This document shows, piece by piece, positions 4,881 to 46,948 of a stretch of DNA of 64,000 nt; positions within the stretch are counted from its first letter, which is position 1, and every line of letters begins with the position of its first letter. This DNA comes from a bacterium (GTDB lineage: Bacteria > SAR324 > JACQKK01), in the NCBI GenBank assembly GCA_965240465.1, contig OZ251219.1, positions 832,001 to 896,000 of the forward strand, in the 5' to 3' direction. The translations under genes were made by a program, and so were the position numbers. The notes under the pieces were generated by a model. The model worked only from the letters and a program-made list of their open reading frames with translations, had not been told where the DNA came from and made no database searches.

Positions 4881-7472
4881 TCAAGATACAGCTTGGAGGA
4901 GGTTTTTGAATACGATGCGATTAAATTTTATATCCACGAGCACATCGTGTCCTGCTTGGAGTTGTCCTTTAAGGATGGCACGGCTGATGGGAGTTTCCAG
5001 TTCTTTTTTGAGTAATCTTTTTAAGGGTCGGACTCCAAAGCGAGGTTCATAGCCTTGTTCTCCGAGCCATTTTCTGGCAGAGTTAGAGATATTCAGTTTA
5101 ATTTGTTTTTTGCTGAGGCGTTCACGGAGTGTTTCTAGTTGGAGGTCTACGATTTCTGTGAGATGTTTTTTTCCTAGGCTTTCAAACATTATGATGTCAT
5201 CCAAGCGATTGGTGAATTCGGGTGGGAAGCAGCGATAGACCTCTTGGAGTACCAGTTTGGTGGCTTGATTAGTTGGTCGGCCGCGTTCTTGAGCTTCTAG
5301 GATGTGATGTGAACCTAAGTTGGAGGTCATGATAAGGACGGTATTTTTAAAGTCCACGGTTCGTCCGTGGGAGTCAGTCAGGCGTCCTTCATCTAGTACT
5401 TGTAGGAGCAGATTGAAGACATCGGGGTGTCCTTTTTCTATTTCATCCAGCAGTACCACCGTGAAGGGACGGCGGCGTACTTTTTCGGTGAGTTGTCCTC
5501 CCTCTTCAAAGCCCACATAACCCGGTGGAGCCCCGATTAAGCGGGCGACTGAATGTTTTTCTGAGTACTCAGATATATCTATACGAACCATGTGGCTTTC
5601 GCCGCCGAATAGCTGTTCCGATAGCACCCGTGCCAGTTCTGTTTTGCCGACGCCAGTGGGTCCTAAGAACAGAAAGCTTCCCATCGGTTGAGCGGGATCA
5701 TTTACTCCAGCTCGGGCTCTCAGGATGGAATCGGCGACGGTTTTAACGGCTGCATCTTGTCCGATGACGCGTTCTTTCATATCTGTTTCAAGGTGCAAGA
5801 GTTTGTTGCTTTCGCCTTCTTTCAGGCGTGAGACAGGGACTCCCGTCCAGCGAGATACTACTTCAGCAATATCATCTGCGGTAACTTCTTCATTCAGCAA
5901 TCTTTGGCCTCCGCTAGCTGGTTTTTCTTCTAGGGCTACTTGACGTTTTTCCAGTTCTGTCAGTACTCCGTATTTCAGTTCAGCTACTCGCTGGAGGTTA
6001 TATTCTCGCTCGGCGACTTCCATGGCGTGCTTGGTTTCTTCTATCTTCTGCTTCAATTGATGACGCAAGCTCAGCTGTTTTTTCTCTTGTTCCCAGCTGG
6101 CTTTTTGCACTGACAACCGTTCGCCTAGGTTGACGAGATTTTTTTCTAGTTCCTGTAAGCGTTCTTTGGAGGCAGCATCTTTTTCCTTCAACAGCGATTG
6201 CTTTTCTACTTCCAGTTGTAGCACTCGCCGTGATAACTCATCCATTTCCGCGGGCATTGAGTCAATTTCGGTACGCATTTTGGCGGCTGCTTCGTCCATC
6301 AGGTCAATGGCTTTATCGGGCAGGAATCTGTCGGCAATATACCGATGAGATAACTCGGCGGCGGCTACCAAAGCCCCATCCTTAATACGCACCCCATGAT
6401 GAGCTTCATAGCGATCCTTCAAGCCTCGCAAAATGGAAATCGTGTCATCCACATTGGGCTGATCAACCATCACGGGTTGAAACCGTCGCTCTAAGGCTTT
6501 GTCTTTTTCCACGTACTTGCGATATTCATCCAGAGTGGTAGCTCCAATACAGTGCAACTCACCCCGTGCCAGCATGGGCTTGAGTAAATTACCCGCATCT
6601 AGTCCGCCTTCTACCTTGCCTGTTCCTACCACGGTGTGCATTTCATCAATGAACAAGATCACTTGTCCTGCGGTATCACGAATTTCCTTTAGTACCTTTT
6701 TTAGGCGTTCTTCAAACTCACCCCGAAATTTTGATCCTGCCAATAGACCGCCCAAATCCAATGATACAATTTGCTTATTTTGCAATCCATCGGGAACATC
6801 TCCTCGCACGATCCTTTGTGCTAGACCTTCTACAATGGCGGTTTTACCTACCCCTGGCTCGCCTATTAAAACGGGATTGTTCTTGGTACGACGGCTCAAT
6901 ACCTGCATCACGCGACGAATCTCTTCATCCCTCCCGATGACCGGGTCCAATTTCCCTTCCCTGGCCATAATGGTTAAATCACGACCGTATTTTAGCAAAT
7001 TCCCTTCTGAATTTTCCTCGCTTGAGCTACCTACTTTCTTGTTTTTATGCATTTCATTTACCGCAGTTGATAATCTTTGCCTGCCTACTATTGATAATAC
7101 CTTCGCGGCTTCATCATTACTACCCCCTCCTGCCAAAGCCAATAGCATATGCTCGGTACTAATGTATCCATTATGTAGCCTGCGTGCCTCAGATTCGGCT
7201 TCTGCTAATACCCGAGCAAAACCACGACTAGCATGAATTTGACCACCACCACTTACCTGCGATTGACGCTTGAGAACATTACGGGCTTCCTTTTGTATCT
7301 TTTCTACATCGCCCCCCGCCTTTTCTATCACCAGAGCCGCCAAGCTATCGGATTGTTCTAACAGGGTTTCCAGTAAATGTAACGAGGTTAACTCTGCGTG
7401 TTGCATGCTAAGAGCTTTATTTTGGGCGTCTTCCAAGGCTTGTTGAGCTTTGTCTGTGAAATTTTCTTGCAT
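4881..7472 (-). CDS. clpB: ATP-dependent chaperone ClpB
   Basis: Two AAA modules ([16 protein letters not shown]), middle coiled coil, GAPPGYVG. Confidence 0.97.
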
Positions 7473-43206: not shown

Positions 43207-44646
43207 CTAAGGCGTACACTGAACGAAGTCTGCTTTGGGTAATTGCCCACAGAGTATTTTTCCAGTAACTTGTTCACCACTGGAATTCTCTTTGTAAGAC
43301 TTCAGGCTGGGGTATTTGCCGTTAGTGAAATCCCAATTAAATTCACTCCAGCCATTACCAGTGAATTCAGTTTCGGTGTTACTGACATTCAAGCTTTTTA
43401 AGCCACCGCTGGTTTTGCCAACCGCCTCGGCGGCTGGAAGGGTTAGTGTGGTTTCGCCATCTAAGTTACTCCCGCTATTATAATAGTTGCTGGTGGCGTT
43501 ACCACTGCTTTTTACGCCAATCAAGCGGCCTATCTTATCGTCTCCAGTCCCTCCATCAACAGCTCCTAAGGAATAACTATTATTGATAGATACACCATCA
43601 AAATATCCCACCAAGCCGCCTATTTTGTCATCACCAGCACCGCCATCAGCAGTACCTGAATAATAACTGTTTCGGATGGTACCAAGAGAACGTCCCACCA
43701 AGCCGCCAACCTCGTCATTACCCCCTTGGCCGTTAACCTCACCAGTGCTGTAGCTGTTCTGGATAACGCCCTGAAGATATCCCGCCAAGCCACCAATAAA
43801 GTTCGGACCGTTATTGCCGTTAACATTACCAGTGCTATAGCTGTTTTGGATAACACCACTATTATTAATACTAACGTCTTGGTAACCACTGCCTATTAAG
43901 CCACCTACCATTGTGTTATCATTACCAGTAGCAGATACCGGCAAGTTTGAAGAAACATTGTCTATAAATCCACTATTCCGGCCTGCTAGAGAACCTACAT
44001 GGTCAACTCCTCCATAACTGGCAACCGAACTAGAGGTACTAGATAGGTTAAGATTTCTTACCGTGCCATTTTTACCTATATAACTAAATAAGCCTACAGA
44101 AAGTTGATTACTATTGATATTCAAGTTAAGTATGCTAAAGCCATTGCCTTCAAAAACAGTCTGAAATCTGACGAATCTACTCTGAGCAACATTGCCAATG
44201 GGTTCCCAATCTGATTGTGAAGCCATATCAATGTCATTGAGTAGCTCATGACCGATGCAACCTCGAGCAGGACAACCCACATCAGAGGCTACATTATTAA
44301 TATAATCTTTGATATCACTGCCGTCGTACAGGTAGTAACGAACCTCGTTTAGTTCCTTGTAAGTGGTAATATCTCTAAGACCGTTGTTGTTATCATCAAC
44401 ATCTTCCGTATCATTTTTGCCATCGTTGTCATCATCGGTGTCTTCGCCAGCATCCTCGCAACCGTCGCCATCAAAGTCAGTGATGGGGGTGCTAGTGAAA
44501 GACTCAGGGCTATCTGGGCATACTGTATCTTGGTCGTTAGGTATGCCGTCACCATCTTTGTCGGTACTTTCATCCTCTTTATCGCCACAGCTGGCTAAAA
44601 GTAAAACAATAACAAAACTGATTGATAGTAACGATAATTTTTTCAT
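43207..44646 (-). CDS. GLUG-repeat lipoprotein 3
   Basis: ATG 44646 with GAGG RBS; LLASC; TSP3-like DxDxDGC repeat; ends ILCGQLPKADFVQCTP. Confidence 0.88.
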   Translation of the reverse strand: MKKLSLLSISFVIVLLLASCGDKEDESTDKDGDGIPNDQDTVCPDSPESFTSTPITDFDGDGCEDAGEDTDDDNDGKNDTEDVDDNNNGLRDITTYKELNEVRYYLYDGSDIKDYINNVASDVGCPARGCIGHELLNDIDMASQSDWEPIGNVAQSRFVRFQTVFEGNGFSILNLNINSNQLSVGLFSYIGKNGTVRNLNLSSTSSSVASYGGVDHVGSLAGRNSGFIDNVSSNLPVSATGNDNTMVGGLIGSGYQDVSINNSGVIQNSYSTGNVNGNNGPNFIGGLAGYLQGVIQNSYSTGEVNGQGGNDEVGGLVGRSLGTIRNSYYSGTADGGAGDDKIGGLVGYFDGVSINNSYSLGAVDGGTGDDKIGRLIGVKSSGNATSNYYNSGSNLDGETTLTLPAAEAVGKTSGGLKSLNVSNTETEFTGNGWSEFNWDFTNGKYPSLKSYKENSSGEQVTGKILCGQLPKADFVQCTP

Positions 44647-44725
44647 AATAGACACCTCTACGAGATTTCTAAAAAATCCCAGGATCTAAAAAATCCCAGA
44701 ACACAATAATAAGCAAGATAACTCC

Positions 44726-44755
44726 ATGCTAACTCATAGAGGGGGACTTCGTCAA
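44726..44755 (-). promoter_or_regulatory. Putative sigma70 promoter for lipoprotein 3
   Basis: TTGACG-18-TAGCAT. Confidence 0.5.
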
Positions 44756-44879
44756 GCTCAGGTAGTTGGGGGGGGGCAGGGTGATGGGGTGATGCAGGGT
44801 GATGGAGAAATCAAGGTGAGGGGGGAGAGGGTTTTTTTTGGGGGGGGGGTGGGTTTTTGGGGGGGGGTAGAATGAAAGA

Positions 44880-45533
44880 GGCTTGGTGAGGAATGTCATC
44901 GCTTGCTCCATTATTCTCAAAAATCCTCACCCTGAGATGATGGCACGGTCCTCCCGCGAAGTCTTACGGTTTGCAATGACGACCTCAGCTTCGCTAGTGG
45001 CTACCGAAAGGATGCCACTAAGTGAACCGAGACTTACGTTCGCTTTCGCTCTGGCAATGCAAACTAGCAATGCAAACTGGCAATTAATTAAAATTGCTCA
45101 GTCCCAGCTCGGTACTAGGCGTGAAATTATACCTTGGAAAAAGTACTAAAAGTACTCACCAAAACAGAAACGGCGTTCCACGACCTTCGGAGCTATTAAA
45201 CTCCCGCCAGTGTTTCTGCGACTGCTTGATCCGCGTTTTAATCCCTTAATGGCAGGAATCTAGGACTTGCCTAGGTTCTACTCATTTGCGGAGGGGAGAA
45301 GAGATTTCGGTGCAATCTACCTCCTCATCTTCCTCGTCATTTGCGTGTGCCAAAACATATGCCAAAAAGCAAACAAAGGACACACATGATCCACCCTTCG
45401 GTATGAACGGAACCTCAGGCGGTCACTACCCACCAATCCCCTTTCATTCGTTATCTAAAACCCTTAGCGAACCTATCCTTACCAGCCTAGGTTTGGCATA
45501 ACTGCAGTTTGGATCACTAAAAATGTTTTGATA
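44880..45533 (-). ncRNA. Candidate large structured non-coding RNA (~650 nt), class unknown
   Basis: Own promoter immediately upstream, no credible ORF, about a dozen hand-found stems; boundaries approximate. Confidence 0.6.
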
Positions 45534-45538
45534 ATGTG

Positions 45539-45567
45539 AGTGTAGGGTATCGCGATCGGTTTGTCAA
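45539..45567 (-). promoter_or_regulatory. Near-consensus sigma70 promoter firing into the 44880-45533 non-coding region
   Basis: TTGACA (45567-45562), 17 nt, TACACT (45544-45539). Confidence 0.7.
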
Positions 45568-45597
45568 GTGCTGAAAAGAGATTAGTTGTCCCCCCAG

Positions 45598-45630
45598 AAA
45601 GAAAAAGGGAGTGAGTATTAACTCACTCCC
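45598..45630 (-). terminator. Rho-independent terminator for lipoprotein 4
   Basis: Minus strand GGGAGTGAGT-TAAT-ACTCACTCCC followed by TTTTTCTTT. Confidence 0.8.
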
Positions 45631-45676
45631 AAAATGGTCTGCTCTATTTTTCAAGCAGTCGGGGGGGGGGTCTAGC

Positions 45677-46948
45677 CTAGTTTGTAGTACACTGAACGAA
45701 GTCGGTGGGTTGGTTACAGAGTAGATCACCTGCGATTTGGGCATTGCTAGCATTCACCTTGAAGGATTTCAGGCTGAGGTATTTGTCAGCGGTGAAATCC
45801 CAGTTTAATGCCTTAAAGCCTGTACCATTAACAAACTCAGTTGCAGTTGCAACTGTTACAGATGCATCTGCAAGTTCATCGCCACCTGCCGCCACTGCTT
45901 TTAGTTCAGTGCCGCTCTTTCCAATGGCCCCGTTTACCCCTGTAAAGGCCAATGAAACATCGGTGCCAGTGGAATCGGCAACCAGTTTGTCGGTAGTGCT
46001 GTCAAAGTAGTTACCAGTAACTGTAACATCCGAAGCTGCTACTTTGCCAATAAAGAGGCTAACTAAATCATCTCCAGCACCACCATCAACGGTACCCAAG
46101 AAGGAGAAGCTGTTCGTGACTGTTCCACTAACAAGTTCTCCAAGCAAGCCGCCTATCTGGTCAACTCCAGCACCGCCAACAACATTGCCAGTGGCAAAAG
46201 TATTTTGGATGGTACCAGAGGTATTTTTACCTACCAAGCCGCCTACAGAGTTAGCCGCAGCACCGCCAGTAACACTGACACTGGCAAAGCTATTTTGGAT
46301 GGTACCACCATTACCATTATAGCCCACCAAGCCACCTAAGGAAGAAGCATTGCCAGTTACAGAACCGACAGCGGTAGTAGCAGTAGCAGAGCTATTTTCT
46401 ACGGTACCGGTATTATTACCTACCAAAACACCTACGGTGCTATTAGCAGCAGTACTAGTACTGGAAACCGTGGCCCCAACAATACTTAGATTTTTTATCG
46501 TTCCAGATGAGTCGGCGAAGAAACCGGTGTTTACGGAGTCACCACCAATTACCAGGCCAGTGATTTCCTTGTTACCGCCATCAAAGATACCTGTGAAACC
46601 TACAATGGAGGCAAAGTTGCTGGTATCACCTGTGAAGGCAATGTCATTGTCTAGTTCATAGCCTTTGCAAGTTGCTTTTTTGGCAGTTCCTGTACCAATT
46701 TCAGGGCAACCAGAAGCATCGCCTTCACCTGTTGCACTTGTTTTATAGCTAGTACCATCCAAGTTGTTCTTGATGTTTTTCAGCTGGGCAATAGTGCTAA
46801 TATCTATTAGACCATTGCCATCATCATCAGCATCAACTTTTTTGGTTGTTGCCTTAGTGGTAGATTTCTTGTCGTCACCACTGCCACAGCCTGCTAACAC
46901 AAGAGCAAAAGCGACCAAGAATAGTGATAATAGTGATAATTTTTTCAT
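45677..46948 (-). CDS. GLUG-repeat lipoprotein 4 (shortest member)
   Basis: MKKLSLL...LAGC; GLIDI, CKGYEL, GLUG repeats; ends LLCNQPTDFVQCTTN. Confidence 0.88.
   Translation of the reverse strand: MKKLSLLSLFLVAFALVLAGCGSGDDKKSTTKATTKKVDADDDGNGLIDISTIAQLKNIKNNLDGTSYKTSATGEGDASGCPEIGTGTAKKATCKGYELDNDIAFTGDTSNFASIVGFTGIFDGGNKEITGLVIGGDSVNTGFFADSSGTIKNLSIVGATVSSTSTAANSTVGVLVGNNTGTVENSSATATTAVGSVTGNASSLGGLVGYNGNGGTIQNSFASVSVTGGAAANSVGGLVGKNTSGTIQNTFATGNVVGGAGVDQIGGLLGELVSGTVTNSFSFLGTVDGGAGDDLVSLFIGKVAASDVTVTGNYFDSTTDKLVADSTGTDVSLAFTGVNGAIGKSGTELKAVAAGGDELADASVTVATATEFVNGTGFKALNWDFTADKYLSLKSFKVNASNAQIAGDLLCNQPTDFVQCTTN

What the first reader, a model, noticed from the sequence alone, without database searches (positions are those of the whole stretch)
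44880..45567. Candidate ~650-nt structured ncRNA with its own promoter inside the lipoprotein array
Seen: just past the lipoprotein 4 terminator, a TTGACA-17-TACACT minus-strand promoter (45567-45539) fires into ~650 nt with no credible ORF; the next gene has a separate promoter at 44755. This is by far the longest unique intergenic stretch in the array. It is non-repetitive and rich in stems. Minus-strand examples: GTGATCCA/TGGATCAT (45517-10 with 45393-86), GTGTGTC/GGCACAC, GAGGAG-AGATT/AATCT-CTTCTC, CTAGG/CCTAG, ATTCCT/AGGGAT, CAGAAAC/GTTTCTG (45218-12 with 45171-65), GGAGT/GCTCC, AGTAC/GTACT, GCAATT/AATTGC, a GC-GAAA-GC tetraloop, AAGTCT-CGGTT/AACCG-AGACTT enclosing TAGTGGC/GCCACTA (45020-14 with 45001-44995), and a terminal GGTGAGGA/TCCTCACC. 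The loop of that last hairpin (GCGATGAC) could pseudoknot with upstream GTCATTGC. Several G-U pairs work on the minus strand, agreeing with the promoter direction. Known: OLE, ROOL and GOLLD are 600-800-nt ornate bacterial RNAs. The segment AGGGATTAAAACGCGGATCAAG (45246-45225) reminds me of an OLE segment, but that is from memory and unverified. I found no RNase P, tmRNA or group II domain V hallmarks. Inference: a new or highly diverged large RNA, possibly linked to surface-lipoprotein biology.
Basis: partly seen in the sequence, partly recalled or inferred. Interest (0 to 1): 0.88.

Follow-up and report, generated by a model that had tools for sequence, protein, structure and literature searches.

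The report
New multi-copy large structured RNA
The stretch is very probably a gene for a roughly 665-base folded RNA that makes no protein, one of seven related copies in this small bacterial genome, and it matches no known RNA family, so its job is still unknown.

Summary
Window 45567-44868 (minus strand) is a self-contained unit: a sigma-70-type promoter followed by about 665 nt with no conserved reading frame.

It is not unique. The genome holds 5 long copies (100/97/95/74/69% identity) and 2 short forms of about 220-250 nt. Similarity between the diverged copies starts at the -35 box and stops at the end of a long closing helix.

- **Structure:** compensatory changes among the copies support the fold. 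In the 7-copy core, 14 of 34 pairs changed on both sides and 96.6% of cells pair. Full length, 21 of 190 pairs changed on both sides.
- **Strand:** G-U excess and alignment folding energy favour the promoter strand.
- **Known families:** no Rfam match.
- **Distribution:** no homolog in 87 other genomes of the phylum, including the same-genus genome. Motif scans of public genome, metagenome and viral contigs, and blastn against phage and plasmid records, found nothing real.
6 are confirmed and 3 are replaced or not conserved. The two key long-range helices were missed.
- **Lipoprotein link:** circumstantial only.
- **Not shown:** expression could not be tested, and function is unknown.

The parts
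45607..45630 (-). Intrinsic terminator of the upstream GLUG lipoprotein gene. It separates that gene from the RNA unit.
   Evidence: 10-bp stem with 6 G-C pairs, followed by TTTTTCTTTC. The same 3' module follows at least 15 GLUG genes.
45539..45567 (-). Sigma-70-type promoter of the RNA: TTGACA, 17 nt, TACACT. The inferred transcription start is near 45533-45530.
   Evidence: 10 of 12 positions. The -35 box and the 17-nt spacing are kept in 6 of 7 copies; the -10 box reads TACACT, TATACT or TAGATT. Similarity among the diverged copies begins a few nt upstream of the -35 box.
45452..45533 (-). 5' leader, a long irregular hairpin of about 82 nt. The motif AAACUGCAG is identical in all 5 long copies.
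   Evidence: helices 1-4: 4 pairs changed on both sides. The leader is weaker in short form p6 and is replaced by a tandem repeat in p7.
45429..45449 (-). P1 closing helix, 5' strand (GAAUGAAAGGGG A UUGGUGGG).
   Evidence: This is the longest inverted repeat in the region (I1). It pairs with 44870-44890 in all 7 copies, with compensatory changes and a matched deletion on both strands in c5.
45386..45426 (-). P2 hairpin with a conserved apical part (UGAGGUUC..).
   Evidence: helix 1: 5 of 10 pairs changed on both sides across the 7 copies.
45345..45385 (-).
   Evidence: helix 3: 7 of 7 pairs changed on both sides.
45334..45344 (-). P4 long-range helix, 5' strand (GCAAAUGACGA).
   Evidence: Pairs with 44973-44982 in the long copies and with the matching 3' segment in the short forms. 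The A-to-G change is compensated in p7 and becomes G-U in p6.
45297..45333 (-). P5 hairpin, the most conserved segment (GGAAGAUGAGGAGGU..GCACCG.AAUCUCUUCU).
   Evidence: helices 5-6: 9 of 11 pairs never vary and 1 changed on both sides. One search shows the sequence conservation.
44983..45296 (-). Insertion domain found only in the long forms (several hairpins). It is absent from the two short forms.
   Evidence: helices 14-26. It holds a 13-nt tandem repeat at 45054-45084 whose copy number differs among c1, c2 and c3.
44973..44982 (-). P4 long-range helix, 3' strand (UCGUCAUUGC).
   Evidence: helix 11 (100% of cells paired).
44891..44972 (-). 3' region with two small invariant hairpins and the conserved single-stranded stretch AGCAAGC.AUGACAUU.
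   Evidence: helices 27-30. Part of the motif is also kept in the short forms.
44870..44890 (-). P1 closing helix, 3' strand. Similarity between the copies ends at about 44868.
   Evidence: No canonical intrinsic terminator follows.
44760..44867 (-). C-rich, G-poor tract with homopolymer runs, lying between the RNA's 3' end and the next gene's promoter. Shared only with c2 and in part c3, so it is not part of the conserved unit.
45677..46948 (-). Upstream GLUG-motif lipoprotein gene (423 aa).
43207..44655 (-). Downstream GLUG-motif lipoprotein gene (482 aa), with its own promoter-like site at 44755-44726.

Best explanation
Window 45567-44868 (minus strand) is one of seven paralogous genes for a lineage-specific structured non-coding RNA.

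Each gene brings its own sigma-70 promoter. The primary transcript of the long form (about 665 nt) has two parts:
- an 82-nt 5' leader hairpin;
- a body of about 580 nt closed by a two-part helix of about 19 bp (P1).

Inside P1 lie hairpins P2 and P3 and a second long-range helix, P4. P4 encloses the highly conserved hairpin P5. In the long forms P4 also encloses an accessory domain of about 310 nt. The two short forms (bodies of 219 and 249 nt) keep P1 to P5 and part of the 3' single-stranded motif, so this junction core is the functional unit.

Inferred, not shown: the RNA acts in trans through its fold, as a stable scaffold for a protein partner or for RNA-RNA assembly. It is probably trimmed to the P1-closed body, because no copy has a canonical terminator. 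It does not act by long antisense pairing or as a cis leader.
For: **Shown by calls**
- Copy number: 5 full copies and 2 short forms; the covariance models find exactly these 7.
- Gene-like boundaries: similarity between the diverged copies runs from just upstream of the -35 box to the end of P1 and no further. The -35 box and 17-nt spacing are kept in 6 of 7 copies.
- Core structure, 7 copies: 34 pairs, 96.6% of cells paired, 14 pairs changed on both sides. Shuffles gave 4.8 +/- 1.6 (0 of 500 reached 14). Slid controls gave 1-6 pairs and 36-56% paired.
- Full-length structure, 5 copies: 190 pairs, 95% paired, 21 pairs changed on both sides. Shuffles gave 6.6 +/- 2.2 (0 of 500). Slid controls gave 3-7.
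- P1 and P4 form in all 7 copies. P1 is the longest inverted repeat in the region.
- Strand: 86 G-U cells against 12 A-C cells. Alignment folding energy is -151.7 on this strand against -119.3 on the opposite one.
- Folding against 60 dinucleotide shuffles: z -4.9 (c1), -4.9 (c5), -7.4 (p6).
- No conserved ORF and no meaningful Pfam match.
- Not a leader: an upstream terminator precedes it, and c2, c4, c5 and p6 are followed by convergent genes.
Against: - No expression data exist. No RNA run was listed for this sequence, so transcript, ends and strand are untested.
- All comparative evidence comes from paralogs inside one genome. These amount to only about 5 distinct sequences, and 3 of the 7 are near-identical. 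The 7-copy alignment was fitted to the model, which favours the structure.
- Copy c4 folds no better than shuffles (z -0.85), and single-sequence z-scores do not separate the strands for c1.
- No homolog turned up in 87 other genomes of the phylum, including the same-genus genome. No real hit came from the motif scans of genome, metagenome or viral contigs. Conservation over evolutionary time is therefore unproven.
- No canonical terminator follows the unit.
- Copy p7 has lost the promoter region and may be dead.
- The scaffold mechanism is inference only.
Confidence: 0.72

Rival explanations
1. It is a trans-acting regulator of the GLUG surface-lipoprotein family. The RNA base-pairs with, or otherwise senses, lipoprotein mRNAs and tunes their expression or variation.
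For: - Four of the 5 long copies lie directly 3' of a GLUG gene on the same strand. There are only about 50 such genes, covering 7.7% of the genome.
- The adjacent genes are not each other's closest paralogs, and the RNA sits at different places relative to homologous genes (A-RNA-B at one locus, A'-B'-RNA at another). Adjacency is therefore not one block duplication.
- Both the RNA family and the GLUG expansion are specific to this genome within the phylum. GLUG hits at E<=1e-5 number 69 here, 1 and 2 in two other genomes, and 0 in 85 others, including the same-genus genome.
- A conserved, predicted-unpaired 11-mer of the RNA (45219-45229) is perfectly complementary to the 3' UTR of the upstream GLUG gene (I7). 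A 9-nt core of that motif lies 16-49 nt after 11 GLUG stop codons.
Against: - Antisense 11-mer matches to GLUG mRNAs are at chance level: 2 clusters observed against a shuffle mean of 1.21, and 179 of 500 shuffles reached 2 or more (totals).
- Duplex energies with GLUG 5' regions do not differ from 150 control genes (p 0.16-0.41).
- No long complementarity exists anywhere in the genome (best 17 nt, E 0.05).
- Copies c5, p6 and p7 are not beside GLUG genes.
- The arrays share flanking modules, so adjacency may only reflect recombination-prone, insertion-tolerant DNA.
- Co-occurrence rests on a single lineage.
Confidence: 0.1
2. It is a non-autonomous mobile or selfish DNA repeat (MITE-like). 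Its inverted repeat and copy number reflect transposition rather than RNA function.
For: - It is multi-copy.
- It carries a 26-nt inverted repeat.
- Its position differs relative to homologous flanking genes at the c2 and c3 loci.
- A second copy of the flanking module lies behind c2.
Against: - The inverted repeat is not at the ends of the repeated unit: 117 nt of promoter and leader lie upstream of it.
- No target-site duplications are visible at c4, c5 or p6.
- The arms evolve by compensatory and G-U changes that work only on one strand. That is the signature of selection on RNA, not on a transposase-binding site.
- Thirty helices are conserved, not just the ends.
- No reverse transcriptase gene is in the genome. 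Other transposase families were not searched.
Confidence: 0.07
3. It is a cis-acting element: a 3' UTR or processing signal of the upstream lipoprotein gene, or a long leader or riboswitch for the downstream gene.
For: It lies between two lipoprotein genes on the same strand. No terminator follows it.
Against: - It has its own conserved promoter and is preceded by a strong terminator.
- Copies c2, c4, c5 and p6 are followed by convergent genes, and the neighbouring genes are unrelated to one another.
- The next gene has its own promoter-like site.
- No riboswitch family matches.
Confidence: 0.04
4. It is a decayed gene, or a small-protein gene family.
For: Stop-free frames of up to 92 aa exist in c1.
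Against: - Frames shift and shorten between copies, and similarity appears in all six frames.
- Indels are not multiples of three.
- No Pfam match above noise.
- No blastn match to phage or plasmid records.
Confidence: 0.02

Closest known systems
Large ornate bacterial RNAs: OLE, GOLLD, ROOL
   Same: - It is several hundred nucleotides long, non-coding and multi-domain.
- It has many conserved unpaired stretches between covarying helices.
- It is independently transcribed.

The abstract start of PMC12286853, seen in the search listing, states that these three RNAs form homo-oligomeric RNA-only complexes. That makes assembly a plausible way for this RNA to work.
   Different: - No sequence or structure match to any of them, at Rfam gathering scores or at E<=10.
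- There are seven paralogs per genome in two size classes. My recollection, from no call, is that those RNAs are usually single-copy.
- No tRNA is nearby and no phage record matches by blastn.
- It is seen in one species only.
Housekeeping RNAs closed by a 5'-3' terminal helix and matured by trimming (RNase P RNA, 6S RNA, tmRNA)
   Same: A long terminal helix joins the two ends of the body. The copies have strong promoters and no terminator of their own, which suggests processing. The processing step is established knowledge for those RNAs and is only inferred here.
   Different: - No model match.
- The genome's real RNase P RNA lies elsewhere, at 225900-226344.
- ARAGORN finds no tmRNA here.
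- The multi-branch core is unlike the 6S rod, and the RNA is multi-copy.
CsrB/RsmZ-type protein-sponge RNAs
   Same: It is a non-coding RNA with its own promoter that could act by binding a protein. A csrA gene is present in the genome.
   Different: GGA and A.GGA motifs are no more frequent than in dinucleotide shuffles in any of the 7 copies. The covarying long-range architecture is unlike the repeated-hairpin design of sponge RNAs.
MITEs and other interspersed bacterial repeats (for example Correia or ERIC elements)
   Same: It is multi-copy, intergenic and contains an inverted repeat.
   Different: The inverted repeat is internal, there are no target duplications, and the changes are RNA-type compensatory ones.

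Membership tests
OLE RNA (Rfam model; accession not checked here) | Match to the family covariance model | tested here: not met
   No OLE hit at gathering score over the whole window, at E<=10 over 44600-45750, or at E<=5 over loci holding four other copies.
GOLLD / ROOL RNAs | Match to the family covariance models | tested here: not met
   no hit.
GOLLD / ROOL RNAs | Usual setting near tRNA genes or in prophages (recalled, not from a call) | tested here: not met
   No tRNA or tmRNA in 44500-45800. No blastn match in 50,697 phage records. Neighbours are lipoprotein, DNA-repair and metabolic genes.
RNase P RNA | Match to RF00010 and single-copy housekeeping status | tested here: not met
   The region has no match. 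The genome's RNase P RNA is at 225900-226344 with 256.8 bits.
tmRNA | tRNA-like domain plus tag reading frame | tested here: not met
   ARAGORN finds none. Rfam finds none.
6S RNA | Match to RF00013; rod with a central bubble | tested here: not met
   No RF00013 match anywhere in the genome (the control rang in only 5 of 14 known genomes, so sensitivity is low). The consensus fold is a multi-branch junction, not a rod.
Group II intron / retron / diversity-generating retroelement RNA | A reverse transcriptase gene in the genome, and an intron domain V model match | tested here: not met
   No RVT_1 match in the genome. No intron model hit. nhmmer finds no template-like second copy in gene ends.
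CsrB/RsmZ-type sponge | Many GGA motifs, enriched over chance | tested here: not met
   GGA counts were 14, 13, 14, 14, 18, 5 and 2, against shuffle means of 12.1, 11.7, 12.6, 11.2, 14.6, 4.9 and 2.2.
MITE-type mobile repeat | Terminal inverted repeats at the element ends and target-site duplications | tested here: not met
   The inverted repeat starts 111-122 nt inside the unit. No flanking duplications are seen in the alignments.
Structured non-coding RNA gene (generic) | Compensatory base-pair changes above controls | tested here: met
Structured non-coding RNA gene (generic) | Own promoter and no conserved ORF | tested here: met
Structured non-coding RNA gene (generic) | A discrete transcript of the predicted strand and size | not testable with these tools
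   No RNA run is listed that holds the sequence. The laid runs are DNA-type contigs.

The most novel reading that the evidence does not exclude
This is a new class of large ornate RNA that comes in long and short isoforms sharing one junction core. It arose or was acquired together with the huge phase-variable GLUG surface-lipoprotein arrays of this reduced-genome bacterium. It works as a higher-order assembly (RNA-only, or RNA with protein, possibly mixing paralogs) that serves the biology of those surface proteins.
Probability: 0.18. Interest if true: 0.85.

Novelty: categorically new. Interest (0 to 1): 0.68.

Why it matters
Bacterial non-coding RNAs longer than 500 nt with elaborate conserved folds are rare, and each one found so far has pointed to unexpected biology. 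This one has no relative in Rfam 15.

It has unusual features:
- seven diverged paralogs, each keeping its own promoter, in a 1.6-Mb genome;
- two size classes that define a minimal core;
- co-occurrence with a lineage-specific expansion of about 50 surface-lipoprotein genes.

The paralogs alone give enough covariation to draw a testable secondary structure. That makes it a ready target for transcript mapping, chemical probing and cryo-EM.

Its limits are that it is seen in one uncultured species only, and that neither expression nor function has been shown.

Tried and rejected
**Searches for known families**
- Rfam at gathering score and at permissive E-values gave only noise: snoRNA and miRNA models at E>2.

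**Searches for homologs**
- BLAST in 40 relatives: none.
- Model R1 in 63 other genomes of the order and model R2 in 87 other genomes of the phylum: none.
- The same-genus genome G001 gave one 11.9-bit match that lacks P5 and the P2 loop, so it is chance-like.
- The G001 region downstream of its uvrB gene holds tightly packed genes and no match. The p6-neighbour protein used as a second synteny anchor found no match in G001.
- R2 on the two other genomes with GLUG hits: nothing significant.
- Motif scan of genome contigs: 6 loci, all chance.
- Motif scan of metagenome contigs: 22 loci, matching only the pattern itself.
- Motif scans of viral contigs: 0 and 2 loci, with no nhmmer support.
- blastn against phage and plasmid records: none.
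- Earlier notes of this scan: no look-alike.

**Expression**
- No RNA holder was listed.
- Laying contigs of three runs showed only the source-like sample plus near-identical low-depth pieces in a second study. This added no new variation.

**Function ideas tested and dropped**
- CsrA sponge.
- Retroelement RNA.
- Long antisense targets anywhere in the genome.
- Pairing with GLUG 5' regions.
- Enrichment of antisense words in GLUG mRNAs.
- Hammerhead and kink-turn likenesses in P5 were judged by eye only and dropped.

**Not resolved**
- One search shows that the 5' strand of P4 could alternatively pair with the P2 loop. Only one position covaries, so this is left open.

Full report
**The observation**

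The minus strand carries TTGACA-17-TACACT at 45567-45539 (10 of 12 consensus positions). This lies just after a strong terminator of the upstream GLUG-motif lipoprotein gene at 45630-45607. The gap between the two lipoprotein ORFs (44656-45676) is the longest in the array within the window.

No credible ORF lies in it. Of the 7 local ORFs, 6 have no Pfam match at E<=1. The seventh has a sub-threshold Mucin hit at E 0.057.

The claim 'unique and non-repetitive' is wrong at genome scale. The window is part of a single-contig 1.599-Mb genome, and the 688-base query recurs there at 97, 95, 74 and 69% identity. An nhmmer profile adds two partial matches.

**Anatomy**

Aligning the copies shows where the unit begins and ends. 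In the two diverged long copies (c4, c5) and in short form p6, similarity starts a few bases before the -35 box. It stops right after the motif CUUUCAUUC, near window 44868.

The -35 box and the 17-nt spacer are kept in 6 of 7 copies. The -10 box reads TACACT, TATACT or TAGATT. In p7 a tandem repeat occupies the promoter and leader region.

The consensus fold of the five long copies has 190 pairs. It consists of:
- an 82-nt leader hairpin;
- a two-part closing helix P1 (45449-45429 with 44890-44870), which is the longest inverted repeat in the region;
- hairpins P2 and P3;
- a second long-range helix P4 (45344-45334 with 44982-44973);
- the very conserved hairpin P5 (45333-45297);
- a multi-hairpin domain of about 310 nt;
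- a 3' region with a conserved single-stranded motif.

The short forms p6 and p7 (bodies of 249 and 219 nt, against 550-588 nt for the long forms) keep P1 to P5 and lack the large domain. This defines a minimal core.

**Is the structure real?**

For the 160-nt 5' core I built a covariance model from the long copies. It finds exactly the seven copies in the genome. The next hits score E 0.96, and by their coordinates they fall on the opposite strand at the 3' ends of c1-c3.

| Measure | 7-copy core | 5 long copies, full length |
|---|---|---|
| Pairs | 34 | 190 |
| Cells paired | 96.6% | 95.0% |
| Pairs changed on both sides | 14 | 21 |
| Same, in shuffles | 4.8 +/- 1.6 (0 of 500 reach 14) | 6.6 +/- 2.2 (0 of 500) |
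| Same, partners slid | 1-6 | 3-7 |
| Cells paired, partners slid | 36-56% | 38-45% |

In the core, P3 covaries at 7 of 7 pairs and P2 at 5 of 10. P1 and P4 form in all seven copies with compensated changes, including a matched deletion on both strands of P1 in c5.

Caveats:
- The sequences are paralogs from one genome.
- Three of the seven are near-identical.
- The 7-copy alignment was fitted to the model.

**Strand**

In the consensus pairs of c1, c4 and c5 there are 86 G-U cells against 12 A-C cells. The alignment folds to -151.7 kcal/mol on the promoter strand against -119.3 on the opposite strand.

Single-sequence z-scores (60 shuffles, full transcript) are:

| Copy | Sense | Antisense |
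|---|---|---|
| c1 | -4.9 | -4.9 |
| c4 | -0.85 | -0.78 |
| c5 | -4.9 | -3.7 |
| p6 | -7.4 | -4.3 |

Folding stability is clear for three of the four copies, but it does not by itself decide the strand. The weaker z of -1.89 came from cutting the sequence at 44880, inside P1.

**Not coding, not a known RNA, not a retroelement**
- Stop-free frames differ in frame and length between copies, and similarity shows up in all six frames.
- Rfam 15 gives nothing at gathering scores. At E<=10 and E<=5 it gives only eukaryotic snoRNA or miRNA models and one viral element, all at E>2.
- ARAGORN finds no tRNA or tmRNA.
- The genome's RNase P RNA is elsewhere.
- No RVT_1 reverse transcriptase is found in the genome.

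**Distribution**
- No BLAST match in 40 relatives.
- No model match in 63 other genomes of the order or 87 other genomes of the phylum.
- The single-contig same-genus genome G001 gives only one 11.9-bit alignment, which lacks P5. G001 is fairly distant: its UvrB is 76% identical at protein level.
- A 19-base gapped motif from P5 found 6 loci in 185,579 species' genomes, 22 loci in metagenome contigs and 2 loci in viral contigs. None extends beyond the motif.
- A second motif found nothing in viral contigs.
- Phage and plasmid records have no blastn match.
- Contigs from a second study hold near-identical low-depth pieces, so the organism occurs elsewhere, but this adds no variation.
I did not verify that.

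**Surroundings and the lipoprotein question**

Four of the five long copies sit directly 3' of a GLUG lipoprotein gene on the same strand. The genome has about 50 such paralogs, covering 7.7% of its length.

The adjacent genes are not each other's closest paralogs. At two loci the RNA sits at different places relative to homologous genes: A-RNA-B at one and A'-B'-RNA at the other. The flanks reuse a terminator module common to at least 15 GLUG genes.

Within the phylum the GLUG expansion is specific to this genome. At E<=1e-5 there are 69 hits here, 1 and 2 in two other genomes, and none in 85 others, including G001. The RNA and the arrays therefore co-occur in one lineage.

A direct pairing mechanism is not supported:
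- The best antisense match in the genome is 17 nt at E 0.05.
- GLUG 5' regions pair no better than 150 control genes.
- Antisense 11-mers in GLUG mRNAs are at chance level: 2 clusters against a shuffle mean of 1.21, with 179 of 500 shuffles reaching 2 or more.
- This holds despite one eye-catching 11-nt perfect complement to the GLUG 3' UTR module.

The other copies lie next to unrelated genes: uvrB, an Smr-domain gene, an aromatic amino-acid lyase, and a helicase/ATPase pair.

**How it most likely works**

Shown:
- a promoter-to-P1 unit kept under selection in seven places;
- an RNA-type covarying fold on the promoter strand;
- a core shared by two size classes.

Inferred:
- It acts in trans as a folded RNA. 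Four copies are followed by convergent genes, and a terminator precedes it, so it is not a leader or a 3' UTR.
- Many invariant unpaired stretches suggest tertiary contacts or a bound partner.
- The lack of any terminator, together with a terminal helix, suggests trimming to the P1-closed body.
- A CsrA-sponge role is unlikely. csrA is present, but GGA motifs are not enriched.
- By analogy with OLE, GOLLD and ROOL, which form RNA-only homo-oligomers (PMC12286853, abstract start seen in the listing), assembly into a larger particle is a reasonable but untested mechanism.

**Verdict**

This is a real and new structured RNA family. It is well supported by comparison within one genome, but it is so far known from one uncultured species, with no expression data and no known function.

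Noticed in passing
window 44760-44867 (minus strand; also 45661-45670): C-rich, G-poor tract with long homopolymer C runs. It reads as G runs on the plus strand. It lies between the RNA's 3' end and the next lipoprotein promoter, and a C10 run follows the upstream gene's stop codon. It could be a Rho-loading site, a slippage-prone phase switch or a G-quadruplex former. It is shared with c2 and in part c3 only.
   Followed up: partly
window 45054-45084; L006 and L007 equivalents: A 13-nt tandem repeat lies inside a variable loop of the RNA. It has 2.4 copies in c1, more in c2, and is absent in c3. Replication slippage is therefore reshaping a peripheral loop of the RNA gene.
   Followed up: partly
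L011 about 6380-6550 (G000:C1 about 1328380-1328550): In short form p7 the promoter and leader region is occupied by about 10 copies of a 16-nt tandem repeat. This copy may be silent or driven by another promoter.
   Followed up: no
L009 3709-6096 (+) and 6872-8761 (-): Copy c5 lies between two convergent genes. One is a 795-aa UvrD-like helicase (GajB-like and DRT-associated helicase models). The other is a 629-aa AAA_15 ATPase (AriA/OLD/GajA-like models). This may be a defence-type gene pair.
   Followed up: partly
whole genome G000: GLUG-motif lipoprotein genes are hugely expanded: about 50 paralogs covering 7.7% of the genome, in several same-strand arrays. They are almost absent from the other 87 genomes of the phylum, including the same-genus genome.
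   Followed up: partly
window 45219-45229 versus 45651-45661: A conserved, predicted-unpaired 11-mer of the RNA is perfectly complementary to the 3' UTR of the upstream GLUG gene. A 9-nt core of that motif lies 16-49 nt after 11 GLUG stop codons. Overall antisense matching is at chance level.
   Followed up: yes
window about 45410-45400 (P2 loop) versus 45344-45334 (P4 5' strand): The P2 loop (CGUCAU in long forms, CGUCAC in short forms) is complementary to the 5' strand of P4 (AUGACG or GUGACG) and changes together with it. This could be an alternative pairing or a folding intermediate. Only one position covaries.
   Followed up: partly
L006 about 6863-6963 (G000:C1 716863-716963): A second copy of the GLUG 3' terminator module lies just behind RNA copy c2 with no gene before it. 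It looks like the remnant of a deleted downstream lipoprotein gene.
   Followed up: no
whole genome G000: No 6S RNA (RF00013) match anywhere in the genome. The control search rang in only 5 of 14 known genomes, so this is weak evidence.
   Followed up: no
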